Source: Eubacteriales bacterium (lineage in GTDB: Bacteria > Bacillota > Clostridia > Oscillospirales > CAG-272). Taken from it: a stretch of 64,000 nt of DNA. The position numbers were made by a program, and so were the translations under genes. The DNA lies in NCBI GenBank assembly GCA_045120465.1, contig JBGVEW010000035.1, positions 212 to 64,211 of the forward strand. Direction: 5' to 3'. The notes under the pieces were generated by a model. That model saw only the letters and a program-made list of their open reading frames with translations, ran no database searches and was not told where the DNA came from. Of this stretch, positions 1-30,626 are shown piece by piece. The stretch's first letter is position 1. Each line of letters starts with the position of its first letter.

Positions 1-58
1 CAACGCTTTTTGAAAGGGGGCTTCGTCAATGACTCAGCCCATACAGCGTCTCCCGCTA

Positions 59-2488
59 TCACTTTACCTTTTTCAGCTTCCAGATGCGCTGTGCGTATTC
101 TTCGATACTGCGGTCGGCGGCAAACTTGCCTGCTGCCGCGATATTGAGGAGCGACATACGGTTCCATCTTGCCTTATCGCGGTAAGCCTCGATCATTGCC
201 TCATGCGTCAGGCGGTAGGACTCAAAGTCCGCCATACACATATAAGGATCTGCCACGCCGTGACCGTTATTGAGGAGATACGACGCGATATCCGCAAAGG
301 ATTCGCCCGCAAAGCCGATAGAAAGCTGATTGATGATCTTGATCAATCGCTCGTTGGAAATATAATAGTTTGCCGCGCTGTAGCCGTTGAGCCAGAGCTG
401 TTCGACCTCGTCTGCCTTCAAACCAAAGATGAACATGTTCTCCTCGCCTGCGGCTTCCTGCATCTCAACGTTTGCACCGTCGAGCGTACCGATGGTGAGC
501 GCTCCGTTGATCATCAGCTTCATGCATCCCGTTCCGCTGGCTTCCTTACCCGCCAAAGAGATCTGTTCGCTGATCTCGGCAGAGGGAACGAGGGCTTCCG
601 CCATGCTGACGCTATAGTTTTCGAGGAACACGACGTTGAGCTTTTCGCGGATCTTGGGGTTTTGCTCAATGTCCTTACCGATCATGCAAAGCAGCTTGAT
701 GATGCGCTTTGCCATATCGTAGCCGGGAGCCGCCTTTGCGCCGAAAATAAAGGTCTGCGGCTGCATATCGAGGTCGGGATTCTCCTTGAGATCCAGGTAA
801 AGTCCAATGATATGGAGCGCGTTGAGAAGCTGTCTCTTATACTCGTGGAGACGCTTGATCTGCACGTCGTAAACCGAATGCGTATCGATCTTTTTGCCGG
901 TCTTTGCGGCAACGAGGTTGGAGAAGCGGATCTTGTTTTCGTGCTTGATGGCACGCATACGCTCCTTAACCGTCTCGTCATCCGCAAACTTTGCAAAGTC
1001 GGAAAGGCGTTCGGGTTGGTGACGGTAATCGGTTCCGATACACTCATCCAAAAGGGCGGCGAGCTTGGGATTGGAATAGCACAGCCAGCGGCGGTGCGCG
1101 ATACCGTTGGTAACGTTATCGAATCGTTCGGGATACATCCGATAAAAGTCCTTGAACGTGGAATCCTTGAGGATGCTCGAATGGAGCTCGGATACGCCGT
1201 TAACCGAGTGCGACGCGATGACCGACAGGTTTGCCATGCGGACCTGTCCGTAGCCGATGACGCTCATGTGCGAAATGCGACCCCAGTTGCCGGGGAACGC
1301 CGTCCATGCCTCGCGGCAGAAGCGCTCGTTGATCTCCTTGACGATGGAATAAATGCGCGGAAGCTTGAGGCGGAACAGATCCTCGTTCCACGTCTCCAGA
1401 GCCTCGGGCATAACGGTATGGTTGGTGTAGGAAACAGTGCGAGTCACGATGCTCCACGCCGCATCCCACGAAAAGAAATAATCGTCAATGAGGATGCGCA
1501 TCAATTCCGGAATGCAGAGCGCGGGATGCGTATCATTGATGTGAATTGCCACCTTGTCGGGCAGGTTATCCAAGCGTCCGTACACCGCCATGTGGTCGCG
1601 GATGATGCTTTGGATGGATGCCGAAACAAGGAAATACTGCTGCGACAGGCGGAGCAGCTTGCCCTCGGTGTGGTTATCCGACGGGTACAAGACCTTGGAA
1701 ATGATCTCCGCGTTGGTGCTCTCCTCCAGTGCTCTGGTGTACTGTCCTTGTGTAAAGAGGCGCATATCGAACTTTTGCGTGTTTCTCGCGCGCCACAAAC
1801 GGAGCTGGCTGACCGCGGTGCTGTCCGCGCCCGAGATCATCATGTCGTAAGGAACTGCCTCGATCTCCTCGCAATCGTCGTAAAGGATCTCGCAGTGTCC
1901 GTCCGATCTCCACTCCTCGCGGATCTTGCCGCCAAAGCGCACCTTATACGTGCGGTCGGTTCTGGGAACGAGCCATACCTCGCCGCCCGGGAGCCAGATG
2001 TCGGGGGTCTCGACCTGAATACCGTCCACGATCATTTGCTTGAACAATCCGTACTCGTAGCAGATCGAAAAGCCCGTTGCGGGATAATCCAGCGACGAAA
2101 GCGAATCCATAAAGCACGCGGCAAGTCTGCCAAGACCGCCGTTGCCAAGCCCTGCGTCGGGTTCGCACTCGTAAAGATCCTCCAGATCAAATCCGAGCTT
2201 TTTCAGTGCCTTTTCATACGCGCCTGCAAGTCCGAGATTGCAAAGGTTGGTTTTGAGCGAGCGTCCAAGCAAAAATTCCATGCACATGTAGTACACGCGC
2301 TTGGCACCTGCCGCGTTGACCTTCTTTTTGTAAGCGGAACGCTTGTCACTTAAAATATTCTTGACCGTGATCGCCGCCGCCTTGTACATCTGGTCGCGCG
2401 ATGCCTCTGCTGCCGTACATCCAAAATGGCGTTGCAGCACGCTCTCCAGCAATTCCTTGACCTCTGCACTGTTGGGATTGTAATTCAT
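59..2488 (-). CDS. glgP: glycogen/maltodextrin phosphorylase (GT35 family)
   Basis: 809-aa ORF with ATG at 2488-2486 and GGAGG about 12 nt upstream. Full-length alpha-glucan phosphorylase pattern, including the PLP-lysine motif EASGTGCMKLMINGA. TGA stop at 61-59. Confidence 0.95.
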   Translation of the reverse strand: MNYNPNSAEVKELLESVLQRHFGCTAAEASRDQMYKAAAITVKNILSDKRSAYKKKVNAAGAKRVYYMCMEFLLGRSLKTNLCNLGLAGAYEKALKKLGFDLEDLYECEPDAGLGNGGLGRLAACFMDSLSSLDYPATGFSICYEYGLFKQMIVDGIQVETPDIWLPGGEVWLVPRTDRTYKVRFGGKIREEWRSDGHCEILYDDCEEIEAVPYDMMISGADSTAVSQLRLWRARNTQKFDMRLFTQGQYTRALEESTNAEIISKVLYPSDNHTEGKLLRLSQQYFLVSASIQSIIRDHMAVYGRLDNLPDKVAIHINDTHPALCIPELMRILIDDYFFSWDAAWSIVTRTVSYTNHTVMPEALETWNEDLFRLKLPRIYSIVKEINERFCREAWTAFPGNWGRISHMSVIGYGQVRMANLSVIASHSVNGVSELHSSILKDSTFKDFYRMYPERFDNVTNGIAHRRWLCYSNPKLAALLDECIGTDYRHQPERLSDFAKFADDETVKERMRAIKHENKIRFSNLVAAKTGKKIDTHSVYDVQIKRLHEYKRQLLNALHIIGLYLDLKENPDLDMQPQTFIFGAKAAPGYDMAKRIIKLLCMIGKDIEQNPKIREKLNVVFLENYSVSMAEALVPSAEISEQISLAGKEASGTGCMKLMINGALTIGTLDGANVEMQEAAGEENMFIFGLKADEVEQLWLNGYSAANYYISNERLIKIINQLSIGFAGESFADIASYLLNNGHGVADPYMCMADFESYRLTHEAMIEAYRDKARWNRMSLLNIAAAGKFAADRSIEEYAQRIWKLKKVK

Positions 2489-2570: not shown

Positions 2571-2712
2571 TTTTTTGGGGAAAACTTTTACCGCCTTTTT
2601 GATAGCCTACCCTCTACGGGAATCGCTCTCATGTCGGTTCCTTTTTTCATGCTCTGCGTGGTTCTTTTCCTCATTTTTCATTCCGCATTTTGCATTTTGC
2701 ATTTTGCATTTT
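2571..2712. repeat. partial copy of intergenic repeat family A (half hairpin plus body)
   Basis: The stretch ttttttggggaaaacttttaccgcctttttgatagcctaccctctacgggaatcgctctca...catgctctgcg aligns with the copies at 4181-4704 and 6336-6920. It lies directly 5' of the glgP start. Confidence 0.6.
2685..2712. repeat. (GCATTTT)x4 heptanucleotide tandem repeat
   Basis: Four perfect consecutive GCATTTT units read directly; they abut and overlap the glgA TAA stop (2713-2711). Confidence 0.85.
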
Positions 2713-4141
2713 AAAGTCCCGCGTACAGTTCGAGGTATTTCTCGGCGGAAGTATTCCACGAAAAATCGGTTTTCATAATTTTGGTAACCAGTTTTTTGCG
2801 CGCCTTGGGGTCATTCCAAAGGGCAATTGCCGCCTCGGTGCGTTCACGAAGCTCGTCAGCGCGGTAATTGGCAAAGGTAAAGCCGTTGCCGTGGATGGTA
2901 TTTCCTTCGGTCCAATAGGGCTTGATGGAATCGTACAAACCGCCCGTTTCGCGCACCACGGGGATGGCACCGTAGCGCGACGCGATCATTTGCGAAAGTC
3001 CGCACGGCTCGCTCTTGGAAGGCATGAGGAAGATATCGGTTGCCGCATAGATGCGCTTGGAAAGGTCACGGTCGTAGGTGATCAGAGCGCGCACCTTTTC
3101 GGGGAACGCCGCTTCCAGGTCGCAAAACAGCTTTTCGTATTTTGCTTCGCCCTTGCCGAGAATCACGAGCTGGACGTCGTTATTTGCAACGATATCCCAA
3201 ATGCACTCCGAAACGATGTCCAGCCCCTTATGGGATGCCAGACGCGTGATCAGGGAGAGCATGGGAACGTCACTCGTTTCGGGGAGTCCGACCTCTTTTT
3301 GCATTGCCTTTTTATTCTTTGCTTTTCCGGCAAGGCGGGTAGGCGTAAAGGGTGCGGCAATGCCGCTCTCCTCGGGATCGTAGTAAGTGTAATCGATTCC
3401 GTTCAGAATTCCCGTCAGCTTGTGCGCGTTGCGAACGAGGCAGGATTCCAACCCGTGTGCGTACTCTGCCGTGGTGATCTCCTCGGCATATCTGGGGCTG
3501 ACCGTACTGACGCGATCGGCACACTCGATTGCCGCCTTCATCAAATTGATGCATCCGCCGTGATCCATCAGGCTATGCTCGTTTTCGCCCATTGCGAACA
3601 CGTCGCCCAAAATTGCAAAATCGTACTGTCCCTGATACTCAATGTTGTGGATGGTGAACGCGGTGCGGATATCGCGGTATCCCTCGCGGTTGCGATAAAT
3701 GCAGTTGAGATACACCACCGACAGTGCCGACTGCCAATCATGCGCGTGCAGCACGTCGGGGTAGTACTGCAAGCGGTTCATCATTTCCAGCACCGCCATG
3801 CAGAAATACGCATATCTCTCACCGTCGTCAAAAAATCCGTACAGTGCGGGACGCTTGAAATAGTATTCGTTATCAATAAAATAGTAAGTGACTCCGTCCT
3901 TCTGCAAGCTATACACGCCGCAATACTGCTGACGCCATGCGAGATCGACGTAAAAAACAGCCTCTTCCTTCATCTGTCGGCGCCACTCGTCCTTCACCGC
4001 CGCGTAAAGCGGAAGCACTACGCGCACGTCAACCTCTCCCGTTTTGGCAAGTGCCGCAGGGAGAGAACCCATCACGTCACCAAGTCCGCCCGTTGCCGCA
4101 AACGGCATCGCCTCGGCTCCTACAAATAAAATCTTCTTCAT
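2711..4141 (-). CDS. glgA: glycogen synthase (starch synthase, GT5)
   Basis: The conserved N-terminus MKKILFVGAEAMPFAATGGLGDVMGSLP (K-x-GGL motif) starts at the ATG at 4141-4139. The 50 codons upstream in the ORF track run through repeat DNA and are rejected. Confidence 0.93.
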   Translation of the reverse strand: MKKILFVGAEAMPFAATGGLGDVMGSLPAALAKTGEVDVRVVLPLYAAVKDEWRRQMKEEAVFYVDLAWRQQYCGVYSLQKDGVTYYFIDNEYYFKRPALYGFFDDGERYAYFCMAVLEMMNRLQYYPDVLHAHDWQSALSVVYLNCIYRNREGYRDIRTAFTIHNIEYQGQYDFAILGDVFAMGENEHSLMDHGGCINLMKAAIECADRVSTVSPRYAEEITTAEYAHGLESCLVRNAHKLTGILNGIDYTYYDPEESGIAAPFTPTRLAGKAKNKKAMQKEVGLPETSDVPMLSLITRLASHKGLDIVSECIWDIVANNDVQLVILGKGEAKYEKLFCDLEAAFPEKVRALITYDRDLSKRIYAATDIFLMPSKSEPCGLSQMIASRYGAIPVVRETGGLYDSIKPYWTEGNTIHGNGFTFANYRADELRERTEAAIALWNDPKARKKLVTKIMKTDFSWNTSAEKYLELYAGL

Positions 4142-4180: not shown

Positions 4181-4704
4181 TTTTTCTTGTTTTTTTCTTG
4201 GAGAACCTTCTTTCAAGAAGGTTCTCCAAACCTCTCCAAGAACTTTTACCGCCTTTTTTGATAGCCTACCCTCTACAAGAATCGCTCTCAAAGTGGTTCC
4301 TCTTTTTCTGCTCTGCGCTTGGCGTTAGCCTTCGTGCAGAACAGACTCGACTTACTTTCTTTCTCTCGCACGCTGACGGAAGAATTGCTCCCGCAAGCGT
4401 TTTGGTACCACCACCCAAAACGCTCACCAAAAGTAGTTTGCTATGTGTTTTTTCTTGGGAAAACTTTTGAAAAAGTTTTCCCAAACCCTTTCAAAACTTT
4501 TATCGCATTTTTGTTGGCGTACCCTCTACGGGAATCTCTCTCATTGCGATTCCTTTTTTCATGCTCTGCGCTTGGCGCAAGCCACCGTGCAGAGCAGACT
4601 CTACTTACTTTCTTTCTCTCGCACGCTGACGGCACAATAGCTCCCGCAAGCGTTTTGGGACCCACGACCACAAAACGCTCCACAAAGTTAGTTTTGCGTG
4701 GGGA
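4181..4704. repeat. two tandem copies (A1, A2) of a ~255-nt structured intergenic repeat, family A
   Basis: Each unit has a T-rich tract, a perfect hairpin (4200-4227 ggagaaccttct/agaaggttctcc; 4457-4482 gggaaaactttt/aaaagttttccc), a conserved body (cttttaccgcc..ccctctac..gctctgcgc..ctttctctcgcacgctgacgg..gctcccgcaagcg) and a second hairpin gcgttttgg..ccaaaacgc. Confidence 0.85.
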
Positions 4705-4740
4705 TTTTTCTCATTTTGCAGTTCGCATTTTTCATTTTTT

Positions 4741-5095
4741 CGTGTCATCCTGAGCGAAAGGCGTAGCCTGTAGTCGAACTTTGCGGAATGAGCCTCGGGC
4801 ACGCAGTGCCGCGAATGGAGCAAAGCGCGAGGGCTGTGCCCGAAGCGGGATCTATTAACGATTACCAATAGCCCTTGATAGAAAAAGTAACATTTGCATG
4901 TGGAAAGCGATTAAGACTCCAAACAAGATCCCATCGTCGCTCCGCTCCTCGGTTTTGCTCCATTCCGCGGGGCTTCATTTCGAAAAACTTCGACTGCGCA
5001 CCGCGAGAATAACCGTTTGGAAAGGCTTCCCCCCGTGGGGAAGCTCCCAACGGAGTCGGGTGATGAGGTGTAGGATGCGGAACATCCGTATTCCT
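4741..5095. repeat. mosaic of other short repeat modules, including an inverted pair
   Basis: 4741-4830 (gtcatcctgagcgaaaggcg..ttcgaactttgcggaatgagcc..gcgaatggagcaaa) recurs inverted at about 4960-5015 (tttgctccattccgcgg..ttcatttcgaaaaacttcgactgcg). The module ggggaagctcccaacggagtcgggtgatgaggtg (about 5038-5071) resembles ggggaggtggcacggcttgccgtgacggaaaggg at about 6952-6985. Confidence 0.45.
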
Positions 5096-5132
5096 CATTG
5101 GATTGGTGGCGTCCTCGTTCTTACAAAAAAAC

Positions 5133-6284
5133 TTACTCCTTCATTCGAACAGGCAGGAGCATAAAGAGCTCCTTGGTGTCCTCTTTTTCCTCTGCGGGTT
5201 CGATGTTGATGCTGGTCAGAGGCGAGGTCATGGAGATGCGCACCTTTTCGGCATCGGTGGCTCTGAGGCTATCGATGAGAAAACGGTTATTGAACGCGAT
5301 CAAAAGGTCGCCGCCCTCCTGCTCCACCTCAACCTCGTCATAGGTCGATCCGAGCGTCGAAACAGCCGAAATCTTGAGCACACCGCTATCAAAATCAAGC
5401 TTTACGTGCGAACGGACGCTTCCCGCCACCTTTTCCTCGGTGATAAGAGCCGCTCTTTCCAAAGCCGCAATCATTCTCTCACGGTCAACCGTTGCAAAAA
5501 TACGGTGCGAATTGAGAATAATACGGTCAAAATCAATGTACTGTCCCTCAATGAGACGGGAGAAGAAAATGATCTCTCCAATATGGAACACGATATTTTT
5601 ACGGGTCAGATAGATGCGCACAGTCTCTCTCTCGTCATCCTTGAGGAGCTTGAACAATTCTCCCACGGTTTTTGTGGGGATGATGAAGGAGAAGCGCAGG
5701 TCGCTGCCGTCCTCGTTCTTATTTTCGATATCTGCCTTTGCAAGACATTTTGCAAGCTTGTAGCTATCGCAGGACACTGCCAGCATCTCGTCTCCCGTAA
5801 TACGGAAATAACATCCGTTGAGAACGGGACGCTGATCGTTTGCCGCCATTGCGTACATCACCTTGGAAAGCATACTCTTGAGCATTGACTGACCGATAAC
5901 AAAGCCGTCCTCGGTAACGAGTCTTGGAATTTGAGGATAGTCTGCCGAATTCATCGAATTCATCTTGTGGCTGGACTTACCGCTCTCGATGCACGCCTGC
6001 AACCCATCGTTAACGGTAAGGGTAACGAATTCCCCCTCCATTACGCGAAGCGTCTGAACGAACTTTTGCGCGTTGATGATTGCCGCACCCGGTTCCTCGA
6101 CCTGTGCCGTCACCGAAATGCGCATTCCCTTTTCCAAATCGAAGGTCGTCATCTCACAGTTGCCGTCCGCGGTAGCGTTGAGAAGGATTCCCTCCACCGC
6201 CGAAAGCGTTGCCTTGCCCGACACCGCACACATCAACGGAGCTACTGCGTCGCTGATCTCTTGTCTCTTGAAAATAATCTTCAT
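5133..6284 (-). CDS. dnaN: DNA polymerase III beta sliding clamp
   Basis: 383-aa product starting MKIIFKRQEISDAVAPLMCAVSGKATLSAVEGILLNA (typical DnaN N-terminus) from the ATG at 6284-6282, with GAAAGGG upstream. The 98-codon N-terminal extension in the ORF track lies in repeat DNA. Confidence 0.9.
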   Translation of the reverse strand: MKIIFKRQEISDAVAPLMCAVSGKATLSAVEGILLNATADGNCEMTTFDLEKGMRISVTAQVEEPGAAIINAQKFVQTLRVMEGEFVTLTVNDGLQACIESGKSSHKMNSMNSADYPQIPRLVTEDGFVIGQSMLKSMLSKVMYAMAANDQRPVLNGCYFRITGDEMLAVSCDSYKLAKCLAKADIENKNEDGSDLRFSFIIPTKTVGELFKLLKDDERETVRIYLTRKNIVFHIGEIIFFSRLIEGQYIDFDRIILNSHRIFATVDRERMIAALERAALITEEKVAGSVRSHVKLDFDSGVLKISAVSTLGSTYDEVEVEQEGGDLLIAFNNRFLIDSLRATDAEKVRISMTSPLTSINIEPAEEKEDTKELFMLLPVRMKE

Positions 6285-6335
6285 ATCTAAAACCCTTTCG
6301 AATTGATAATCGTGTTGTTTTTTTTCTTTTCTTCT

Positions 6336-6920
6336 TTTTTGTTTTTTCTTGGAGAACCTTCTTGAAAGAAGGTTCTCCAAACCTCTCCAAGAACTTTTAC
6401 CGCCTTTTTTATAGCACCCTCTTTGAAAGGAATATTCAAAGCCTTTCCACCGAAGGTGCTCTGCGCTCGGTAAAAGCCTTGATGCAGTACAGACTCTGCT
6501 GAATTTCTTTCTCTCGCACGCTGACGGAAGAATCGCTCCCGCAAGCGTTTTGGTACCACCACCCAAAACGCTCCACAAAGTTAGTTTTGCGTGGGGGATT
6601 TTCGTGGGAAACTTTTTTCAAAAAGTTTCCCACACCCTTCAAAAACTTTTACCGCATTTTTGTTAGCCTACCCTCTGTAGGAACCGCTCTCAAAGCACTC
6701 CCTATTTTCATGCTCTGCGCTCGGTAAAAGCCTTGATGCAGTACAGATTTTGCTGAATTTGTTTCTTTCGCACGCTGACGGAGCAATCGCTCCCGCAAGC
6801 AATTTGGTACCACTTCTCGCTGCGGCTCGGTCACGCTCGCGTTCTGACACCACACCGTGGTGTCATTCATCCCGCTCGCGCCGCTTCGCTACCCAAAACG
6901 CTCCACAAAGTTAGTTTACC
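6336..6920. repeat. two tandem copies (A3, A4) of repeat family A; A4 carries a nested 77-nt insertion
   Basis: Hairpins at 6351-6378 (ggagaaccttct/agaaggttctcc) and 6606-6631 (gggaaacttttt/aaaaagtttccc), with the same conserved body as 4181-4704. In A4 the gcgttttgg..ccaaaacgc hairpin loop is interrupted at 6814-6890. Confidence 0.85.
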
Positions 6921-7085
6921 CATGGCAAAACAACTTTTGCCTCCCACTCTTGGGGAGGTGGCACGGCTTGCCGTGACGGAAAGGGCGCATTTTACATTCC
7001 CCTCGCCCCGCGCTCGCGCGATAGCCCTATAGCCTAATAGACATATATATAATATCGTAGTGATAGTAGTAAGGGCTGCGGAAAG

Positions 7086-7491
7086 TGTGGAAAACTCAAA
7101 AAAGCCTTATGCCGCTTGACTTTTTTGGATGCGTCGATTTGGGAAACCTGTTGAGTGTCATAGGTGTCAAACGGTGGAATTCGGTTTTGACGATGTGAAG
7201 AACTCTCCGATTGGGGTTCTTTTGGATCCCAAATGGCACACTATGGCACGTTTTCCACTTTTCCACAAGGGTTTTCCACAAGGAAAAGTCGATTTTTTTC
7301 GATTTTTGTCATTTTTTGCGGAGTTTTCCACTCCTTGACTTCAAACGGCTATCAACAGCAATTTTGTCATATGCCGCTTGACGTTTTTGATTTTTCTCCA
7401 CACCCGTTAACGGACTTTTGATAGGTTTTTTACACCACTTTTCCACAGGTGTTGAAAACCATGTGGAAAACTTGTGCTTTGGTGTGGAAAG
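7086..7491. promoter_or_regulatory. DnaA-box cluster (oriC-like region)
   Basis: Perfect TTTTCCACA at 7259-7267, 7272-7280 and 7439-7447 (+) and at 7086-7094 and 7462-7470 (-). One-mismatch boxes at 7251-7259, 7324-7332, 7394-7402 and 7483-7491. AT-rich tracts lie at about 7040-7075 and 7583-7617, and dnaN is 0.8 kb away. Confidence 0.6.
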
Positions 7492-7570
7492 GCATTTTTG
7501 TAACAGAAAAAGGTTCTTTTTTGGAAAGCTTCACCGTTAAAAAGTTCTTTCCGTCCGGAGAGTTCAGGCT

Positions 7571-7790
7571 ACTGCCAACCTCTATTATAAAAAAGTTTTT
7601 TTAAAATACATAAATTTGCTGCCCACTTTTTCTTTGCAAGAAAGAGGCGCAAAGAAAAAGTTAGCAAAAAGAAACGCCAAAAGAGAGAGTTCGCACGTTG
7701 CGACGGGCGAGGAGGGTGTTGCCCCTCCACCCCACAAACTTTTGAAAAAGTTTGATCAAAACTTTTGTCAAACTGACGAAACTCGTTAGT
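7571..7790. repeat. copy B1 of a second ~210-nt intergenic repeat family (B)
   Basis: It aligns with 59671-59885, sharing actgNcaaccNctattataaaaaa, ggcgcaa(a/g)agaaaag..caaaa(a)gagaaacgcc..ttcgcac and the hairpin caaacttttgaaaaagtttg (7735-7754) followed by caaaactttt. Confidence 0.7.
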
Positions 7791-7805
7791 TTTGTCTATA
7801 GTTTG

Positions 7806-7830
7806 GGGGCTGAGTCAATGACTCAGCCCC
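7806..7830. terminator. GC-rich hairpin downstream of the TIGR00266-family gene
   Basis: ggggctgagtca-a-tgactcagcccc forms a perfect 12-bp stem. The T-rich tract lies on the + side only, so its role as a minus-strand terminator is uncertain. Confidence 0.4.
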
Positions 7831-7845
7831 TTCGTTTTCTGTTTC

Positions 7846-8577
7846 TCAATTTCCGCCCAGATTGATCCGGAAACCTCCGCCGCCGTCGTCTCCGCCCGTT
7901 CGGATATCGAGATACGGAGTCAGCACGCGCGCCGTGTTGGCAATGGGCATGGATTGGATATAGACCTTACCGGGGCCCGTAACGCGGGTATTGAACAGCC
8001 CCTCTCCGCCAAGGAACATATTCTTCACGCCCTTGACCATCTGGATATCCATCGAGCATCCCTCGGTCATCGCCGCAAGGTAACCCGTATCTACGATGAT
8101 GCTTTCCCCATATCCCAACGTGTACTCCTTGCAGTAGCCGTCGATTTCGATAAAGACCATTCCGTCGCCGCGCACGCGTTGCATAATAAAGCCCTCGCCA
8201 CCGAAAAAGCCGTTTCGCAAACGCCGCTGAAAATAAACCGAAAGCTCCAACCCCCGCTCCATGGCAAGAAATCCGCGCTTTTGCACGATAATGCCCTCGC
8301 TCGGAGTCACGTGGTACGGGATGATAGAGCCCGGAAAACTGGACGCAAACGCGATCATTCCGCGTCCGCCTTCCGCGGTGTATTCGTTGAGAAAAAGCGA
8401 TTCTCCCGAAAACATTCTGCCAAACATTTTTTTGATGCCGCCCCCCGTATTGGTATCCATGCGCATATTGGGACTCATCCAGCTCATAGCACCGTTCTCG
8501 CTGCAAAGTGCCTGCCCTGCCTCGGGGTAACAAATCACAACCGGCAAATTACCGCCTTCAATTTCATATCGAATCAT
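7846..8577 (-). CDS. TIGR00266 / AIM24 (DUF124) family protein
   Basis: 243-aa product MIRYEIEGGNLPVV...GESLFLNEYTAEGG...GGEGFIMQRVRGDGMVFIEIDG...GGEGLFNTRVTGPGKVYIQS is typical of the family. ATG at 8577-8575. Confidence 0.8.
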   Translation of the reverse strand: MIRYEIEGGNLPVVICYPEAGQALCSENGAMSWMSPNMRMDTNTGGGIKKMFGRMFSGESLFLNEYTAEGGRGMIAFASSFPGSIIPYHVTPSEGIIVQKRGFLAMERGLELSVYFQRRLRNGFFGGEGFIMQRVRGDGMVFIEIDGYCKEYTLGYGESIIVDTGYLAAMTEGCSMDIQMVKGVKNMFLGGEGLFNTRVTGPGKVYIQSMPIANTARVLTPYLDIRTGGDDGGGGFRINLGGN

Positions 8578-23979: not shown

Positions 23980-26736
23980 TTACTTGCCCGACTCCGTTGT
24001 ACGAAGCTTGGCAGCAGCTGCGTCCGCTTTTTTCTGCTTGTGCTCTCTGATCAGCTCATGCGGCCACTTGAACTTGAACTTACGCACGGCAATGTCCAAG
24101 AGGAAGAGCACGATGGCCAAGATCAAAAGCGGGATACGGGGATCGTATTCCCTCTTTAACGTTTTTTCGAGATTTTGGAATACGTCCGCAGGGTCGTTGA
24201 TGATAAGTCCTCTGCCGTCGTTTGCCAACAGGGTCATCAGCTCCTCGCCCAAGGGAGTGCGCGTCGGGAACGCGTTATACTCCTCGGAATAGGAAAAGGT
24301 CTTGTAGAAGGACGTATCCGAAAGAAGCACGCCGTTTTCGTCGAACTTCTCGATCGTGACCTCGTAAAGTCCCGCATCCTTGATCTCAAACGAGAATCTG
24401 CGGTTGCCCTCCTGTGCCTTTACGGGAATGCCGCGATTGGCAAGCTCCGCCAAGGAAGCAGACAGAGGCTTTACGGAGACCTCGATACGATGATTTTCAT
24501 CCAGATTGTAAATATTGAGCTGCGTGGTGTAGTTGTCGGTCTTAACGGAATAGTCAAATCCGCCAACCTGTACGTCCTCCTTCGGGAAGATCGAGCGGAC
24601 GATGTTGGTAACGATCGCCTTACCGATCAGGTCCTCAACAAACGTACCCGACCACTCACCGTTCAGGTCACACATAAAGCTACCCACGTTACCCGCGCCG
24701 TATTTCCAATGTGCATAGATCGGAACGTATTTGCCCATCAGGGTAACGACTGCATCCTTTTTGGCAACCGTACCGTAGTAACCGGTCAGAGGCGGGATCG
24801 CATTTTGCGCAATACCTGCCACAACGGTGGTATGCTCCTTAATCTGAGGAATAAACTCCTCACCGTAAGCGATCTCGGGGATCGCTTCCAGTGCCAGATC
24901 CTGCTGCATGACCGTAGGAATGGTCTGGAGCTGGGACTGTGCAACGTTGTAGAACTTACCGCCGCCAAGGGTTGCAAGCTCGGTCATCTTTTCGCGCTTG
25001 CCCGCATCGATATCACCAACCGTAACAACGGACATGGTAATGCCCTTTGCCACGTTGATATCCGTAAAGTCCAGATAACCGACTCCGTCCTCGGTTCTTG
25101 CTTCGTCTCCGGGGTCACCGTCGGATACGATGATAATATGCTTACGCTCGACGTTGGTAATTGCCGAAAGTGCAAGTCCCGCACCCTCGATTGCCTTTGC
25201 GAAGATGGTACCGCCGCTTGCCTCGGTATTGTCGTCCACAGCTCGGATCGCTTCGCGGATCTCATCCCTGCGGGAAACCGGAAGAATCTGCAAGTTTTCG
25301 GTCGCCGCCTCGCTAAAGGAATAGACACCGCAGAAATCACGGTCGCTCAAGGTATCCAGACACGCTTCGGCACCCTCAATCGCCGCGGGAAGCTTACCCA
25401 TGCTCATAGAGCCAGAAGTATCCACAACGATCATCAATGCGATAGGAGGAGTAAAATCCACGGCGTTGATGGGAAGCATCTGCTTGTAGTAAGTGGATTT
25501 TTCCAGATCCACGCGGTTGTATGCGTGGGGCACCAGCGTTCCGTTGACCAGTTCGTTTTTACCGCCCACGGTAAACAAACCGCCGCCAAGGCTGTAAACG
25601 TACTCATTGAGCAGTTCCTCAAAGCCTGCGGGCATATCGCTGTAGGCAATGTTTGCCAAAATGACCTGTTCGTACTCTGCCATCTCCTGAAGCGTACGCG
25701 GGAACATATCCAGCTCCTTTTCCACGCTGAAGGAGGTAACCTTAAAGTTTTCGTTCAGAATTTCCTGAAGCTTTTGCGTCTCGTTTTCATAACGCTCAAG
25801 CAACAGAACGTTTTCGAATTCCTCCAGATTGATGAAGGAATGGTATGCGTTATTCTTGCTTTCGGTATCCTTGGGATGCGCGATCTCAAAGCGAAGCTCG
25901 TGCATACCTCTGGACTCCAGCAGGATGTTTATGGGAACGGTCTGCTCCTCCTGCGAAACGGTGATGGCGGTCGTTCCCAGCTTTTCACCGTTATCGTACA
26001 GGCTCAGCTCCAAATTCTGTTCACCCTTGCCGAAATTGCTTTTCAAAGTCACTTCCGCGGTAAACGCCTCACCGGGAATGACGTGTTGATCGGGCATCTT
26101 AACCGACAGGATCTGCATCTCCTCGGATTCGTTATTGGGATAGTAAACCGTATCCACCATAATGCCGTCGGCGGCAATTCCCTTGATCACGGCGGTAGCC
26201 GCTTGATCGGTTTCGATACCGTCCGAGATCAAAACGATCTTGGCGGATTCGGAATTGGTAAAGAGGCTTGCCGTGTACTCCAAGGCGGTAGCCAGATCGG
26301 TTGCCGTGGTATCGGGATCCTTGGAGGTCAAATAATTTTCATATGCATTCGTGGGGTCGTCCGTCAATTCGGCAACGTAGCTGCAGCCGTATCCGAATTT
26401 GACCACACCGACCTTGTAGTCGGTTCCGCAAATATTGATTACCGTTTGTACGAAATCATCCTTGTCCGCGCGAGTTCCCTCGGAGCTATCCGAAACGTCA
26501 ACCAGCAAAAGGATCTCGTTTTTCGCATTCGGAATCTCGTAGCGGAAGGAAATACCCGCCAAAAGGTTGATCGCAATGACCATAGCAATGCTGTGCAATA
26601 CCATGGAAACGATGCGGTTTCTGGTGCGGCGGTATTTTTTGTTCATCAAAAAATACGGAAGCAGCGTCAGAAGAATCGCCGGAATGATCAACAGCAACAG
26701 CCACGGATGAGTATAATTCAGTTGTAAATTCAGCAT
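23980..26736 (-). CDS. membrane protein with two von Willebrand factor A domains (BatB-like)
   Basis: N-terminal TM helices. MIDAS motifs are LLVDVSDSS and VVDTSGSM. The C-terminal TM anchor is IPLLILAIVLFLLDIAV. AGGAG lies upstream of the ATG at 26736. Confidence 0.85.
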   Translation of the reverse strand: MLNLQLNYTHPWLLLLIIPAILLTLLPYFLMNKKYRRTRNRIVSMVLHSIAMVIAINLLAGISFRYEIPNAKNEILLLVDVSDSSEGTRADKDDFVQTVINICGTDYKVGVVKFGYGCSYVAELTDDPTNAYENYLTSKDPDTTATDLATALEYTASLFTNSESAKIVLISDGIETDQAATAVIKGIAADGIMVDTVYYPNNESEEMQILSVKMPDQHVIPGEAFTAEVTLKSNFGKGEQNLELSLYDNGEKLGTTAITVSQEEQTVPINILLESRGMHELRFEIAHPKDTESKNNAYHSFINLEEFENVLLLERYENETQKLQEILNENFKVTSFSVEKELDMFPRTLQEMAEYEQVILANIAYSDMPAGFEELLNEYVYSLGGGLFTVGGKNELVNGTLVPHAYNRVDLEKSTYYKQMLPINAVDFTPPIALMIVVDTSGSMSMGKLPAAIEGAEACLDTLSDRDFCGVYSFSEAATENLQILPVSRRDEIREAIRAVDDNTEASGGTIFAKAIEGAGLALSAITNVERKHIIIVSDGDPGDEARTEDGVGYLDFTDINVAKGITMSVVTVGDIDAGKREKMTELATLGGGKFYNVAQSQLQTIPTVMQQDLALEAIPEIAYGEEFIPQIKEHTTVVAGIAQNAIPPLTGYYGTVAKKDAVVTLMGKYVPIYAHWKYGAGNVGSFMCDLNGEWSGTFVEDLIGKAIVTNIVRSIFPKEDVQVGGFDYSVKTDNYTTQLNIYNLDENHRIEVSVKPLSASLAELANRGIPVKAQEGNRRFSFEIKDAGLYEVTIEKFDENGVLLSDTSFYKTFSYSEEYNAFPTRTPLGEELMTLLANDGRGLIINDPADVFQNLEKTLKREYDPRIPLLILAIVLFLLDIAVRKFKFKWPHELIREHKQKKADAAAAKLRTTESGK

Positions 26737-26752
26737 CTTGTGTCAGCTCCTG

Positions 26753-28651
26753 TCAATAATTCTGTTTCGTTTGCAACGCCCACTCGGCAAACATCAAGGT
26801 TACCAGCGCGATCGCAAAATAGAAGAGCAGATCCTCAAATTCGATCTCGACCACGGTTTCCACGCTCATCATGGGAAGCGCGTCAACCTGCTTGGTAACG
26901 TTGCTTTCATAAGCGGGGATCGTTACAAAGAAGTTTTCGGTAATGAGCGCGTCCCCCTTCATCGTCTTCTGCGTTGCGGTATAGGTGCCGGGGCGCGTCA
27001 GCTTCAATTCCCCTACCGCATTCTCAAACAGGATCTCCTCACCGTTTCCTTCTACCTTCAGATCGGTTCCGCGTCCCGTCAGGGTTACGGTGTCACCGAT
27101 CTCAAAGGAGTTGGAGGTGAGCGTTCGGGGAATGAAATAATTGAACATATTGAACATCATAAACGAGAAATCGGGAATTGCACACAGGTTGGAATAGTTC
27201 AGGTCGAACGCCCAAACCACAACCTTTGCCCCTTGCTCATTCTTAACAAGGATCATCGGCTTACCGTTGTAGTACGCCAATTCCTCATATCCGTCACTCG
27301 AAATGATCTCTCGGTACTTTGCAATGGTGATTCGAGAGGAGTCCACGTAAGTCATCAAATTGTGAGGCGCACCCGTTGCCAGGGTCGTATCGCTCTTTAC
27401 GGGAACCGCTTCACCGATACGAAGACCCGAACCGTCGGGACCCTTGTCGGGGTCCACCAGAAGCACAACGCCGTCGGTGGGCATCACGTCGGGCATACGG
27501 TGCTCAAAGATGTAAAAATCAAAGCCTTCGGTTTCTACCGCCTCACCGTACGTACGCTGCACAAACTCAATGTTCCATGCGTTTTTCATTGTCTGACGCA
27601 TCGTGCGCACCATACCTGCGAAATAGTTGTTCGGGATCGAGCTCGAATACTGAACGCGGATGGTGGGCTTGGTTCCTCCGTAAAGGAAGAAGATGTTGTC
27701 ATCAACAAAGGAATCGTCAACCGAAATATAGAGCTCCAGATAATCGAAGGAATACAGTGCCTCACCGCCCATATCGTCGGTATTGAAACTGATGACCTTC
27801 TCTTCCTCTGCGGGATCGAAAAATTCGGTTCTCGTCAGCGTTTTGGAAGCCTGCGCGTTTCCGTTTACGCCGTGGATCTCACAGGTAACGGTTACCGTTT
27901 CGGTTCTGCCGTAGCAGCCGAGCTCCACGTTGATCTCGTAGTGGTTGTTCTCGTTCATTTCTGCCGTACAACCGAGAATTGCCGCGTTCCATTCGCCCGC
28001 CTCTGCCACGTTTTGAACCAAAATCTCATTCTTTTCAACGTATTCGGTTGCCGTAAAGAGGTGAACCTGTGCCTCATTGTTAAAGTTCAGCACGCTTTCG
28101 GACAATGCGACAGCCCCCTTGATGTCTGCCGAGCTGTAGGTACACTGCGTACCATCCGCCAACAGCGCATCAAACGCTGCGTTGATCGCATCCGTTTGTG
28201 AGGAGCCTGCTCGCTGGAACAGGAACTCGGAGTTGTCGTCCGCCAAAATGACCGACACGAGTCCTCCATCCTCCAAGGTGCCAAGCACCAATGCGCGTGC
28301 TTCGTCAACTGCGCGCTCAAAGCGCGTGCTGGCGCCGTTGGTAAGGCGCATACTTGCGGAGGCGTCGATGATGATGACCTTTTCATTTTCGTCACCGATC
28401 TTTTCATGCATCAACACGGGCTGTGCCAAAAGCAGTGCGCAGATGGTCAGAATCAGCACCTGGCACAAAAACAGCAGGATGTTTTGCAAACGGTTGATCG
28501 GCAACCGCTTTTTTCTGTATTTCAGACTCAATCTCCAGACAAAGGTACTGGAGATCATTTTTTGCTGATAATTAGGCTTGATGATATAAATGATGATCAG
28601 AGCAATTATACCGAGCAAACCCAAAAATCCTAACGGTGCTAACCAACTCAT
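26753..28651 (-). CDS. BatA-like protein (aerotolerance-regulator N-terminal domain plus VWA)
   Basis: The N-terminus MSWLAPLGFLGLLGIIALIIIYIIKP is characteristic of BatA_N. It has the VWA MIDAS motif IIDASASM and a C-terminal TM helix. Its start overlaps the DUF58 stop by 4 nt (ATGA). Confidence 0.85.
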   Translation of the reverse strand: MSWLAPLGFLGLLGIIALIIIYIIKPNYQQKMISSTFVWRLSLKYRKKRLPINRLQNILLFLCQVLILTICALLLAQPVLMHEKIGDENEKVIIIDASASMRLTNGASTRFERAVDEARALVLGTLEDGGLVSVILADDNSEFLFQRAGSSQTDAINAAFDALLADGTQCTYSSADIKGAVALSESVLNFNNEAQVHLFTATEYVEKNEILVQNVAEAGEWNAAILGCTAEMNENNHYEINVELGCYGRTETVTVTCEIHGVNGNAQASKTLTRTEFFDPAEEEKVISFNTDDMGGEALYSFDYLELYISVDDSFVDDNIFFLYGGTKPTIRVQYSSSIPNNYFAGMVRTMRQTMKNAWNIEFVQRTYGEAVETEGFDFYIFEHRMPDVMPTDGVVLLVDPDKGPDGSGLRIGEAVPVKSDTTLATGAPHNLMTYVDSSRITIAKYREIISSDGYEELAYYNGKPMILVKNEQGAKVVVWAFDLNYSNLCAIPDFSFMMFNMFNYFIPRTLTSNSFEIGDTVTLTGRGTDLKVEGNGEEILFENAVGELKLTRPGTYTATQKTMKGDALITENFFVTIPAYESNVTKQVDALPMMSVETVVEIEFEDLLFYFAIALVTLMFAEWALQTKQNY

Positions 28652-29547
28652 GCCATGATACCTACCTTAAGCAATTCTTTGAACAGTACCTTTTCGATAG
28701 GCTGATCGGTGCGAACGGTGATAAACTCCGCGCCGCGCGAATGACAAAACGTCTTCAACCCATCCACCAGCTCGTGCATTGCTTGCTCGTAAGCACTCTG
28801 GGATGCACGGTCGATCTTGAGCTTCATGTTTTTGGTATCGGCAACGTCCACCGACTCGGAGTCGATGAGGTTGACGCGTCCCATGTAAAGCGGATCGGTC
28901 TCCTCGGGGGTCATCACCTGAACCAAAAGAACCTGACGCTTTTTATAGCAGAGATAATCCACTGCTTTTTTCCAGTCGGAATCCGTAAAGAAGTCGGAAA
29001 TAATAACGGTAAGTCCGTCGTTGTTGCCCGTTGTGGGGCATCCGACAACCGCCTGGCGCAGATCTGCCTCTCCGTCAAAATTCATCTTTTCAAGCTCGCT
29101 GATCGCGCTGAAAAACGCCCGCTTGCCAACAATGGTGCCAAACGGATTTTTCGCCTTATCCTCTTTGATGAGTTGGAAAGAGACCTTGTCCATGTTATGT
29201 ACGGACAAGTATCCCAAGGCAGCCGCAATACCAATTGCGTAATTTGCCTTTGAGGGATTATCCTTTCCCATCGATGCCGAACAGTCGATAAAGATCTGCG
29301 TGTGCATCTGTCTCTCATCGGTAAAGAGCTTTAAGAAGAACTTTTCGAAGCGGCTGTACAGATTCCAGTCGATACGGCGGATATCGTCACCGAGCATATA
29401 CTCTCGATAGTCCGCAAACTCAACCGTTTGTCCGTACGTCCGCACCAGATGCTTTCCTCCGAAAAAGCCCGCAAGATCTGCGCGCAATTCCAGCGAAAGC
29501 GCTTCTAAACGACTGAAAAATTCATCGTTTAAGTAGGAACCCTTCAT
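28648..29547 (-). CDS. DUF58 domain protein (MoxR-associated)
   Basis: Carries the DUF58 signature FADYREYMLGDDIRRIDW. Its start overlaps the MoxR stop by 1 nt (TAATG). Confidence 0.85.
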   Translation of the reverse strand: MKGSYLNDEFFSRLEALSLELRADLAGFFGGKHLVRTYGQTVEFADYREYMLGDDIRRIDWNLYSRFEKFFLKLFTDERQMHTQIFIDCSASMGKDNPSKANYAIGIAAALGYLSVHNMDKVSFQLIKEDKAKNPFGTIVGKRAFFSAISELEKMNFDGEADLRQAVVGCPTTGNNDGLTVIISDFFTDSDWKKAVDYLCYKKRQVLLVQVMTPEETDPLYMGRVNLIDSESVDVADTKNMKLKIDRASQSAYEQAMHELVDGLKTFCHSRGAEFITVRTDQPIEKVLFKELLKVGIMA

Positions 29548-30626
29548 TATTTTCTCCCAAATACCTTACGCTTTTTCTCGGTGCTCTCAACCTCTTGGGG
29601 AGCATCCTTTTTGTCTTCCTTCTTTGCGTTATCTACGAGACCGTTCTTGCCGGCAAGCTCGTCGATGATCATCTTAACGATCTCATCAGCGGATACGCGC
29701 TCTGCAATTGCCTCGAAGGTCAGCTTCATTCTGTGTCTGAGAACGGGGTAAGCCAGCTCGTTGATATCGTTGTAAGAAACGTTGAATCTGCCGTTCATGA
29801 GTGCCTTTACCTTTGCCGCGGAGATCAAAGCCTGACCTGCACGGGGGGATGCACCGAGACGAACGTACTTCTTTGCAGCGTTGCTTGCGCACTCGCTGTC
29901 GGGGTGCGTTGCGGAGCAAAGGGTCATTGCGTAGCGCATCACGTCCTCAGCAACGGGGATCTGGTTTGCGGTAGCGCGCATCTCCAGCAGATCCTCGCCG
30001 TTACAAGCAGCGTCAGCAACCTCTGCCATGGTCTTTTGGGTCATGTTGACGATATCCATCAATTCATCCAGCGAAGGATTCTTAACGATGATCTTGAACA
30101 TGAAACGGTCCATCTGTGCCTCGGGCAGAGGGTAAGTACCGTCCTGCTCGACGGGGTTCTGGGTTGCCAGAACGAAGAAGGGCTCTTCCAGCTTTCTCGA
30201 AACGCCCATCACGGTAACGGTGTGCTCCTGCATTGCCTCAAGGAGTGCAGACTGGGTCTTAGGAGTTGCACGGTTGATCTCGTCCGCGAGAATGATGTTG
30301 GAGAAGATCGGTCCCTTTTGGAACTGGAAGCTGGAGTTGCCGTTATCGTCCTTTACGATAATGTTGGTACCCGTTACGTCGGCGGGCATCAGGTCAGGAG
30401 TGAACTGGATACGGGAGAACGGAAGGTTGAATACACGACCGAGAGAACGAACCAAACGGGTCTTACCGACACCGGGAACACCCTCCAAAAGCACGTTACC
30501 GCCTGCGATCATTGCGATAACCGCACCCTCGATAACTTCCTTTTGACCAATCACGTCTCTTTCGATCTGCTCAAAGATGTTTTTGCACTGCGTGCTGAAT
30601 TTTTGAATGCTCTGTTCTGTAACCAT
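29547..30626 (-). CDS. MoxR-family AAA+ ATPase
   Basis: Walker A is LLEGVPGVGKT and Walker B is IILADEINRATPKTQSALLEAMQE. The single AAA_3-type domain is followed by a lysine-rich tail. Confidence 0.92.
   Translation of the reverse strand: MVTEQSIQKFSTQCKNIFEQIERDVIGQKEVIEGAVIAMIAGGNVLLEGVPGVGKTRLVRSLGRVFNLPFSRIQFTPDLMPADVTGTNIIVKDDNGNSSFQFQKGPIFSNIILADEINRATPKTQSALLEAMQEHTVTVMGVSRKLEEPFFVLATQNPVEQDGTYPLPEAQMDRFMFKIIVKNPSLDELMDIVNMTQKTMAEVADAACNGEDLLEMRATANQIPVAEDVMRYAMTLCSATHPDSECASNAAKKYVRLGASPRAGQALISAAKVKALMNGRFNVSYNDINELAYPVLRHRMKLTFEAIAERVSADEIVKMIIDELAGKNGLVDNAKKEDKKDAPQEVESTEKKRKVFGRK

What the first reader, a model, noticed from the sequence alone, without database searches (positions are those of the whole stretch)
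7040..7620. Dense DnaA-box cluster (oriC-like) with no dnaA gene nearby
Five perfect TTTTCCACA boxes lie at 7086-7094(-), 7259-7267, 7272-7280, 7439-7447 and 7462-7470(-). Four one-mismatch boxes lie at 7251-7259, 7324-7332, 7394-7402 and 7483-7491. All nine fall within about 400 bp of a 1.56-kb non-coding region upstream of dnaN.

TTTTCCACA fits the accepted TTWTNCACA DnaA-box consensus.

The cluster is flanked by AT-rich tracts that could act as unwinding elements: about 7040-7075 (atatatataatatcgtagtgatagtag) and about 7583-7617 (tattataaaaaagtttttttaaaatacataaattt).

A 13-nt direct repeat TATGCCGCTTGAC occurs at 7108-7120 and 7370-7382 and brackets the central boxes.

No ORF in 6285-7845 resembles DnaA. 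So this is either a chromosomal origin physically separated from dnaA, one half of a bipartite origin, or a DnaA-titrating or dnaN-regulatory site.
Basis: partly seen in the sequence, partly recalled or inferred. Interest (0 to 1): 0.65.

Follow-up and report, generated by a model that had tools for sequence, protein, structure and literature searches.

The report
Ordinary replication origin, dnaA lost at contig join
The DnaA-box cluster is the normal chromosome replication origin of an uncultured gut Clostridia species, and the missing dnaA gene reflects a junction inside a dispersed repeat that only this contig has, because other assemblies of the same species have dnaA directly next to the cluster.

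Summary
All five perfect TTTTCCACA boxes in the 64-kb window lie in 7086-7470, with five one-mismatch boxes beside them.

The end of the cluster nearest dnaN has the Firmicutes-type unwinding module:
- a box at 7086-7094 and a degenerate box at 7077-7085;
- a GGGC spacer;
- DnaA-trios at 7058-7072;
- an AT tract at 7043-7055.

The cluster is orthologous to the dnaA-dnaN spacer of relatives. Twelve loci from related species and three independent same-species assemblies (L033, L040, L041) read dnaA-cluster-dnaN. None has a box cluster upstream of dnaA, so the origin is a single unit, not bipartite.

The "no dnaA" part does not hold for the species. The window joins three loci that lie apart elsewhere:
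- ArsR-AIM24, normally followed by two GH31 genes (ten contigs);
- a roughly 3-kb oriC-dnaN cassette (4741-7766), normally dnaA-oriC-dnaN-recF-gyrB;
- glgA-glgP, normally glgBCD-glgA-glgP.

Both joins lie in high-copy dispersed repeats. The AIM24-side junction words are found in only one public run. There is no GC-skew or gene-strand switch at the cluster.

My estimate is an assembly chimera (about 0.55) or a rearrangement private to this strain (about 0.3). Interest is low.

The parts
7086..7491 (.). DnaA-box cluster. Perfect TTTTCCACA at 7086-7094(-), 7259-7267(+), 7272-7280(+), 7439-7447(+) and 7462-7470(-). One-mismatch boxes at 7251-7259(+), 7324-7332(+), 7394-7402(+), 7450-7458(-) and 7483-7491(-).
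   Evidence: The cluster aligns with the dnaA-dnaN spacer of L001, L030, L033, L040 and L041 and with alignment A1.
7439..7491 (-). Box quartet on the dnaA side: CTTTCCACA-N12-TTTTCCACA-N3-TTTTCAACA-N2-TGTGGAAAA. It is almost invariant across 8 species. In relatives it starts about 8 nt after the dnaA stop codon.
   Evidence: columns 20-72 of A1; L002 dnaA stop at 1622-1624.
7077..7094 (-). Tandem DnaA boxes of the unwinding module: TTTTCCACA (7086-7094) directly followed by the degenerate CTTTCCGCA (7077-7085).
   Evidence: Read directly from the sequence. Conserved in 8 of 8 aligned species. Fits the BUS rule of one box with at most 2 mismatches and a second box with at most 4 (PMC8287927).
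7058..7076 (+). GGGC spacer (7073-7076) followed by DnaA-trios. Read 3'->5' on the + strand from the box they are AAT GAT GAT AGT GAT (7072-7058). On the minus strand this reads GCCC TTA CTA CTA TCA CTA.
   Evidence: Sequence. TACT-type triplets adjoining the boxes are kept in all 8 species of A1, while the GC spacer varies. Compare the C. difficile oriC2 trio 5'-CACCTACTACTATTACTACTATGA (PMC7561715). The rule is at least 3 NAN trios within 16 bp of a box.
7020..7057 (.). Putative DNA unwinding element: an AT-rich tract next to the trios, with a pure A/T run at 7043-7055.
   Evidence: Sequence. ATTATATATATGTCTATT is conserved in close relatives, and more distant ones have a longer AT run at the same place. 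Unwinding itself is inferred, not shown.
5133..6284 (-). dnaN (DNA polymerase III beta clamp, 383 aa).
   Evidence: Pfam PF00712, PF02767 and PF02768. 71-98% amino-acid identity to the DnaN of relatives.
6341..6991 (.). Two copies of dispersed repeat R (6342-6587 and 6599-6813, plus a tail to about 6991), inserted between the unwinding element and dnaN. They inflate the spacer to 1.56 kb.
   Evidence: k-mer depth in run X1 is 100-1500 against about 20 for unique DNA. Relatives without the insert have spacers of 541-670 bp.
7645..7803 (.). Right junction of the cassette. It is a partial R copy. Same-species dnaA contigs match the window up to 7766-7777. Ten AIM24 contigs carry a different 45-nt stretch right after the terminator (7758-7803), and their sequence also departs from the window's on the cluster side of the shared core, at about 7689 or 7652. 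Exact multi-copy cores lie at 7718-7766 and 7645-7681.
4411..4953 (.). Left junction of the cassette. It consists of repeat E (4741-4947) plus R (4448-4694). Orthology to the glgD-glgA spacer of L056 (98.35%) ends at 4411. Orthology to the region downstream of dnaN in L033, L035 and L037 (96%) ends at 4741.
   Evidence: About 190 nt (4762-4953) has depth 28-1050 in X1, apart from one short bin at 7.6.
7846..8577 (-). AIM24-family gene, the non-native neighbour on the dnaA side. Its terminator hairpin is at 7806-7830.
   Evidence: Pfam PF01987; terminator scan; contexts.
2711..4141 (-). glgA, followed by glgP at 59-2488. This is the non-native neighbour on the recF side. In L056 it is preceded by glgB-glgC-glgD.
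   Evidence: Pfam; contexts.

Best explanation
What it is. The cluster is the chromosomal replication origin of an uncultured gut or rumen Clostridia species. It is a single-unit origin that fills the dnaA-dnaN spacer.

How it most likely works (inferred from sequence only):
- DnaA bound to the roughly ten TTTTCCACA-type boxes forms an oligomer.
- From the tandem boxes at 7077-7094 the oligomer extends onto the DnaA-trios at 7058-7072.
- This opens the adjoining AT tract (about 7020-7057), where the helicase is loaded.

Why dnaA is missing. In this species the native order is dnaA - origin - dnaN - recF - gyrB. In the window a roughly 3-kb oriC-dnaN cassette (4741-7766) sits between ArsR-AIM24 and glgA-glgP. 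Both joins lie inside high-copy dispersed repeats. I judge this to be a chimeric join made by short-read metagenome assembly, so the absence of dnaA is a property of the contig, not of the organism.
For: Origin identity:
- The box cluster is far above chance.
- The unwinding module matches the published BUS rules and the C. difficile oriC2 trio.
- Both the box quartet and the unwinding module are conserved across 8 species.
- Related loci read dnaA-cluster-dnaN-recF, with 3-10 perfect boxes in the spacer and none clustered upstream of dnaA.
- In relatives GC skew is negative upstream of dnaA (8 of 8) and positive downstream of dnaN (4 of 5 flanks longer than 1.8 kb).

Non-native flanks:
- Same-species contigs L033, L040 and L041 carry dnaA next to the sequence matching window 7766-6974, at 97.2% identity.
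- L035 shows dnaN-recF-gyrB.
- Ten same-species contigs show AIM24-R-GH31-GH31, including contigs of 68-95 kb.
- L056 shows glgBCD-glgA-glgP.
- Two samples each yield both canonical loci: L041 with L046, and L040 with L047.

Chimera specifically:
- Both joins lie in repeats. The left one runs through about 190 nt of repeat at 28-1050x depth, apart from one short bin at 7.6x.
- In X1 the box-cluster unitig (depth 27) overlaps both the window's version (depth 11.4) and an alternative (depth 18.4). The AIM24 side carries about 20, which does not fit the 11.4.
- Other assemblies of this species show further one-off contexts at the same repeats: L033 dnaN-DHDPS and L034 DUF1653-dnaN.
- The junction words occur in one run only.
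- Of 21 Pfam-supported genes to the right of the cluster, 18 point towards it, and the skew sign is the same on both sides.
Against: - Exact unitigs of run X1 tile nearly the whole window path across both joins at single-copy depth. The exception is a stretch at about 4868-4901 with no match of 99% or better.
- The exact multi-copy cores at the right join are only 37 and 49 nt. Ordinary 100-150-nt reads could span them, so an assembler should have resolved that join correctly.
- X1's own 21.6-kb unitig carries a private 45-nt variant right after the AIM24 terminator. No other strain has it. So something really differs at that spot in this strain.
- Depth in X1 is similar for the cassette (22-27) and the flanks (19.7-22.8), so it does not tell the two readings apart.
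- No raw reads or long reads were available.
- DnaA binding and unwinding are inferred from sequence only.
Confidence: 0.55

Rival explanations
1. Same origin, but the arrangement is real in this one strain. Recombination between dispersed repeats (for example two inversions with end points in R and E copies) moved oriC-dnaN away from dnaA and recF. The origin then fires with DnaA supplied in trans, and at least 57 kb of genes are now transcribed head-on to the leftward fork.
For: - Exact X1 unitigs follow the window path.
- The repeated cores at the right join are short.
- There is a private 45-nt variant after the AIM24 terminator in X1's own 21.6-kb unitig.
- Cassette and flanks have equal depth, so the cassette is single-copy and not a duplication.
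- The origin has no dnaA-upstream half, so separation from the dnaA gene is mechanistically tolerable.
- A recent inversion would also explain the lack of a skew or strand switch.
Against: - It needs at least two independent rearrangements, both private to one sample. They would split the glgBCDAP operon and the dnaA-dnaN-recF block.
- Strains 98% identical have neither rearrangement.
- The 45-nt variant matches neither parental repeat copy, so simple recombination between the two copies does not produce it.
- The window's junction unitig has about half the depth of either side.
- Similar one-off contexts in other assemblies (L033, L034) point to artefacts at these repeats.
Confidence: 0.3
2. 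The cluster is a DnaA-titrating or dnaN-regulatory site, and the real origin lies elsewhere.
For: There is no skew or gene-strand switch at the cluster in the window. DnaA-box clusters outside origins are known in other bacteria (my own knowledge; not tested here).
Against: - The site carries the full unwinding module of tandem boxes, GC spacer, trios and AT tract, conserved in 8 species.
- It is the only box cluster at the dnaA-dnaN locus in 13 relatives.
- Their GC skew changes sign at that locus.
Confidence: 0.05
3. It is one half of a bipartite origin. The other half would lie upstream of dnaA, as in Bacillus subtilis or C. difficile.
For: Clostridial origins are described as bipartite, with unwinding in the dnaA-dnaN half (PMC7561715).
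Against: In the 800 nt upstream of dnaA, 13 loci of this clade have 0-1 perfect and 0-1 one-mismatch boxes. Their dnaA-dnaN spacers have 3-10 perfect and 4-8 one-mismatch boxes.
Confidence: 0.03

Closest known systems
Bacillus subtilis oriC, dnaA-dnaN part (incC) with the basal unwinding system (BUS)
   Same: Position between dnaA and dnaN. Tandem DnaA boxes, a short GC spacer, 3'-GAT-5' DnaA-trios and then an AT-rich element on the dnaN side (PMC8287927; sequence).
   Different: This clade has no box cluster upstream of dnaA, so the origin is a single unit. The box consensus is TTTTCCACA rather than TTATCCACA. Function is untested.
Clostridioides difficile oriC2 (dnaA-dnaN spacer)
   Same: 5-9 boxes. 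The trio CACCTACTACTATTACTACTATGA precedes the unwinding element, much like GCCCTTACTACTATCACTACGA here (PMC7561715).
   Different: C. difficile needed oriC1 as well for unwinding in vitro. No oriC1 equivalent is seen here. Here dispersed repeats have been inserted between the unwinding element and dnaN.
Origins naturally separated from dnaA (Escherichia coli oriC)
   Same: This would resemble the window only if the window's arrangement is real: an origin served by DnaA in trans. PMC8287927 notes that E. coli oriC is separated from dnaA.
   Different: In E. coli the separation is fixed in the lineage and skew and gene orientation are adapted to it. Here it is private to one contig and one run, with no skew or strand switch, and the species-level order is dnaA-oriC-dnaN.

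Membership tests
Bacterial chromosomal origin oriC (DnaA-dependent) | Cluster of DnaA boxes: at least 3 boxes with mean spacing under 100 bp (criterion quoted in PMC7561715). | tested here: met
   10 boxes with at most 1 mismatch in 406 bp. All 5 perfect boxes of the 64-kb window are here.
Bacterial chromosomal origin oriC (DnaA-dependent) | Basal unwinding system: a box with at most 2 mismatches, a spacer of at most 16 bp, and at least 3 NAN trios (consensus 3'-GAT-5'). | tested here: met
   Box at 7086-7094, degenerate box at 7077-7085, GGGC spacer, trios AAT GAT GAT AGT GAT at 7072-7058. Rules from PMC8287927. The boxes and trios are conserved in 8 species.
Bacterial chromosomal origin oriC (DnaA-dependent) | AT-rich unwinding element next to the trios. 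| tested here: met
   Pure A/T run at 7043-7055 within an AT-rich stretch of about 7020-7057. Conserved. No duplex-destabilisation calculation was run.
Bacterial chromosomal origin oriC (DnaA-dependent) | Strand-compositional switch (GC-skew sign change) and gene-orientation switch at the site. | tested here: not met
   In the window the skew has the same sign on both sides, and 18 of 21 annotated genes to the right point towards the cluster. At the canonical locus of relatives the feature is met: negative upstream of dnaA in 8 of 8, positive downstream of dnaN in 4 of 5 flanks longer than 1.8 kb. The failure reflects non-native flanks.
Bacterial chromosomal origin oriC (DnaA-dependent) | DnaA binding, DnaA-dependent unwinding, and a marker-frequency peak. 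| not testable with these tools
   No isolate, no closed genome and no raw reads. Unitig depths along the window are flat within noise.
Firmicutes-type origin in the dnaA-dnaN spacer | Lies between dnaA and dnaN. | tested here: inconclusive
   Not met in the window: there is no dnaA in 64 kb. Met in three same-species assemblies and twelve related loci.
Bipartite origin (oriC1 plus oriC2) | A second box cluster upstream of dnaA. | tested here: not met
   0-1 perfect boxes within 800 nt upstream of dnaA in 13 loci.

The most novel reading that the evidence does not exclude
In one natural strain of a gut Clostridia species, recombination between high-copy dispersed repeats has very recently cut the oriC-dnaN cassette away from dnaA and recF. 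It now sits between AIM24 and glgA. The result would be a working origin with dnaA elsewhere and tens of kilobases of genes newly head-on to replication.
Probability: 0.3. Interest if true: 0.55.

Novelty: new member of a known kind. Interest (0 to 1): 0.22.

Why it matters
As an origin it is ordinary. It adds a clean example of a single-unit dnaA-dnaN origin, with a conserved unwinding module, for an uncultured Clostridia lineage.

The practical lesson concerns method. In genomes full of dispersed repeats, "oriC without dnaA" in a metagenome-assembled contig should first be checked against other assemblies of the same species.

If the arrangement turned out to be real, it would be a rare snapshot of the first step by which an origin and dnaA become separated. 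It would also be a natural test of how much head-on transcription a Firmicute tolerates.

Tried and rejected
- Rfam and tRNA scans of the window found nothing, so the spacer holds no known RNA gene.
- A dnaA or recF pseudogene in the spacers is rejected. tblastn gives only chance hits.
- A second, duplicated dnaN-oriC copy is rejected. Cassette depth equals flank depth in X1.
- A plasmid or phage origin is rejected. The flanking genes are chromosomal housekeeping and carbohydrate genes.
- A depth excess of the cassette as a sign that it lies elsewhere looked promising (27 against 19.7). It was dropped once other unitigs of the window showed a spread of 15.7-23.4.
- The metagenome-contig scan with DnaN returned only short contigs of other species.
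- No Nanopore or PacBio runs were listed.
- Exact look-ups failed for window DnaN, AIM24 from its first ATG, the 415-aa DnaN call and GlgA. Alternative starts and cluster members had to be used instead.
So the presence of the canonical dnaA junction in the source run could not be tested.
- The two TTGAC-containing 20-nt repeats do not have -10 partners, so they do not read as promoters.

Full report
**Observation**

TTTTCCACA occurs five times in the 64-kb window, all between 7086 and 7470. About 0.95 matches are expected, and no shuffle reaches five. Allowing one mismatch gives 32 matches in the window, ten of them within 7086-7491.

The box at 7483-7491 is on the minus strand.

- dnaN is 5133-6284(-), with all three beta-clamp domains.
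- The next gene upstream is an AIM24-family gene (7846-8577, minus strand), followed by an ArsR-type regulator.
- The 20-nt direct repeat at 7108-7127 and 7370-7389 is real.
- tblastn with the DnaA and RecF of relatives finds neither gene anywhere in the window.

**Anatomy**

Read in the dnaN direction (minus strand), the cluster has three parts.

- It starts with a box quartet, CTTTCCACA-N12-TTTTCCACA-N3-TTTTCAACA-N2-TGTGGAAAA (7491-7439).
- Scattered boxes follow.
- It ends with TTTTCCACA CTTTCCGCA GCCC TTA CTA CTA TCA CTA CGA TATTATATATAT (7094-7043).

On the + strand the trios read 3'-AAT GAT GAT AGT GAT-5'.

This is the published basal unwinding system: a box or box pair, a spacer of at most 16 bp, and at least three NAN trios with consensus 3'-GAT-5' (PMC8287927). 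It closely resembles the C. difficile oriC2 trio CACCTACTACTATTACTACTATGA, which precedes the experimentally mapped unwinding region (PMC7561715).

Between the AT tract and dnaN lie two copies of a roughly 250-nt dispersed repeat, R (6342-6587 and 6599-6813, with a tail to about 6991). These account for the unusual 1.56-kb spacer.

**Relatives**

A DnaN-guided scan of species-representative genomes returned 13 loci from uncultured Clostridia of ruminant and human gut, with 57-92% DnaN identity, plus two distant ones.

- All of these loci have TTTTCCACA clusters just upstream of dnaN.
- Where the contig extends, a 455-490-aa DnaA lies immediately upstream and RecF downstream.
- An eight-species alignment shows the quartet and the unwinding module as the two conserved blocks.
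- In 13 dnaA loci the dnaA-dnaN spacer holds 3-10 perfect and 4-8 one-mismatch boxes. The 800 nt upstream of dnaA hold 0-1 of each. The origin of this clade is therefore a single unit, not bipartite.
- In relatives GC skew is negative upstream of dnaA (8 of 8) and positive downstream of dnaN (4 of 5 flanks longer than 1.8 kb). This fits an origin at that locus.

**Same species**

Cluster members of the window's DnaN and of the matching DnaA led to contigs 95-98% identical to the window.

- L033, L040 and L041 come from three samples. Each reads dnaA, then 37-50 nt, then the sequence of window 7766/7777-6974 (97.2%), then R, then dnaN.
- L035 reads dnaN-E-R-R-recF-gyrB.
- The sister species L029 (98% amino-acid but 86% nucleotide identity in dnaN) and L030-L032 read dnaN-recF. 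L029 continues into gyrB.

The window's other two parts are also elsewhere in the species.

- Ten contigs carrying the identical AIM24 protein read AraC-HAD-sialidase-ArsR-AIM24-terminator-R. Where they extend further, two convergent GH31 genes follow (L046 73.9 kb, L047 95 kb, L048, L049 67.8 kb).
- L056 reads glgB-glgC-glgD-(E,R,R)-glgA-glgP.
- Two samples each give both canonical loci: L041 with L046, and L040 with L047.

So the window joins three loci: AIM24 | cassette 4741-7766 | glgA-glgP.

**The joins**

Right join:

- The dnaA-type contigs match the window up to 7766-7777.
- The AIM24-type contigs carry a different 45-nt stretch right after the terminator (7758-7803). They share a 31-nt core with the window, and their sequence departs from the window's again from about 7689 (or 7652 in some).
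- The stretch 7758-7803 is found only in the window and in X1's own 21.6-kb unitig, L052.

Left join:

- Orthology to the glg locus (98.35%) ends at 4411.
- Orthology to the region downstream of dnaN (96%) ends at 4741.
- In between lie E and R copies that are only 83-92% like any other copy.

In run X1, which holds 96% of the sampled words, exact unitigs tile the window apart from a short stretch at about 4868-4901. Unique parts have single-copy depth (19.7-27) and repeat cores have 100-1500x.

- At the right join the exact multi-copy cores are short (7645-7681 and 7718-7766).
- The junction unitig the window uses (7652-7747) has depth 11.4.
- An alternative 66-nt unitig has depth 18.4.
- The two flanks have depths of 27 and about 20.
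- At the left join about 190 nt (4762-4953) is high-copy, which short reads cannot span.
- The junction words are held by X1 only. No long-read run was found.

**Interpretation**

The identity of the feature is secure. It is the species' canonical origin, of the Firmicutes dnaA-dnaN type with a basal unwinding system. Its mechanism (DnaA oligomer on the boxes, extension onto the trios, opening of the AT tract) is inferred from sequence and from the cited work. It was not tested here.

The absence of dnaA is not a trait of the organism. Whether the window's arrangement exists in one strain or only in the assembly cannot be settled with contig-level data.

I favour a chimera (about 0.55) for these reasons:
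- Two independent non-native joins, both in repeats, are needed.
- They would split two conserved gene blocks.
- They are seen in one run only.
- Unitig depths at the right join do not balance.
- Other assemblies of the species show further one-off contexts at the same repeats: L033 dnaN-DHDPS and L034 DUF1653-dnaN.

A real private rearrangement (about 0.3) is kept alive by three things:
- the exact unitig path through the window;
- the short repeat cores at the right join;
- the private 45-nt variant next to AIM24.

Either way, the lack of a skew or strand switch in the window is explained by non-native flanks. In the dnaN orientation the skew is +0.07 upstream and +0.03 downstream, and 18 of 21 annotated right-hand genes point at the cluster.

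**Verdict**

This is an ordinary origin and a new member of a known kind. The unusual part of the finding is most likely an assembly artefact. Interest is low.

Noticed in passing
window 4191-4439, 4448-4694, 6342-6587, 6599-6813, fragment 2583-2658, partial 7689-7777; also L001, L006, L010, L011, L029, L033: A roughly 250-nt dispersed repeat family (R). Copies begin with a perfect 14-15-nt hairpin (6349-6380, 6604-6633). Copies are 79-87% alike within the window. k-mer depth is 100-1500 against about 20 for unique DNA in run X1, which implies tens of copies. The family is shared across related species, looks MITE- or REP-like, and sits at contig breaks and at odd joins.
   Followed up: partly
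window 4741-4947 (to about 5018); L033 333-534, L040 1-590, L056 5120-5641 and 10385-10712: A second high-copy element (E) often found next to R. It occurs downstream of dnaN, upstream of dnaA and in the glgD-glgA spacer of the same species. The 78-aa ORF at 4862-5098 lies inside it and is probably not a gene.
   Followed up: partly
whole window, e.g. 29-2353(+) opposite glgP 59-2488(-); 48947-56848(+) opposite 48974-56818(-): Almost every gene has an equally long open reading frame on the opposite strand. The antisense ORFs mostly start with TTG or GTG, and those scanned gave no Pfam hits. They are probably shadow ORFs caused by codon bias, but this is striking at about 51% GC.
   Followed up: no
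window 7108-7127 and 7370-7389: A 20-nt direct repeat, TATGCCGCTTGACNTTTTTG, inside the origin. It is kept at both places in the closest relatives (L033, L001, L030) but not in more distant ones. It may be a binding site for a second origin factor. No promoter partner was found.
   Followed up: partly
window 7758-7803; L052 6809-6856: A 45-nt stretch right after the AIM24 terminator that is private to the window and to run X1. Ten other strains carry a different variant of the R repeat's 5' end there.
   Followed up: yes
L033 4807-6325; L034 9164-10001: Other same-species assemblies also show one-off neighbours for dnaN: a DHDPS gene instead of recF in L033, and DUF1653 with no box cluster upstream in L034. 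Each switch is at R or E repeats.
   Followed up: partly
window 23980-30626 (-): A MoxR AAA ATPase, DUF58, BatA and VWA-domain gene row, resembling a Bat (aerotolerance-like) operon.
   Followed up: no
window 31974-40253 (-) and 48974-56818 (-): Two very large ORFs of 2759 and 2614 aa, not characterised. GC skew turns positive across the first one (33-40 kb), which is probably a compositional effect of that gene.
   Followed up: no
It is conserved in the same-species contigs L033 and L041. It contains TTTTTTATAATAGAGG on the dnaN strand, which looks like a -10 element and could be a promoter reading towards dnaN.
   Followed up: no
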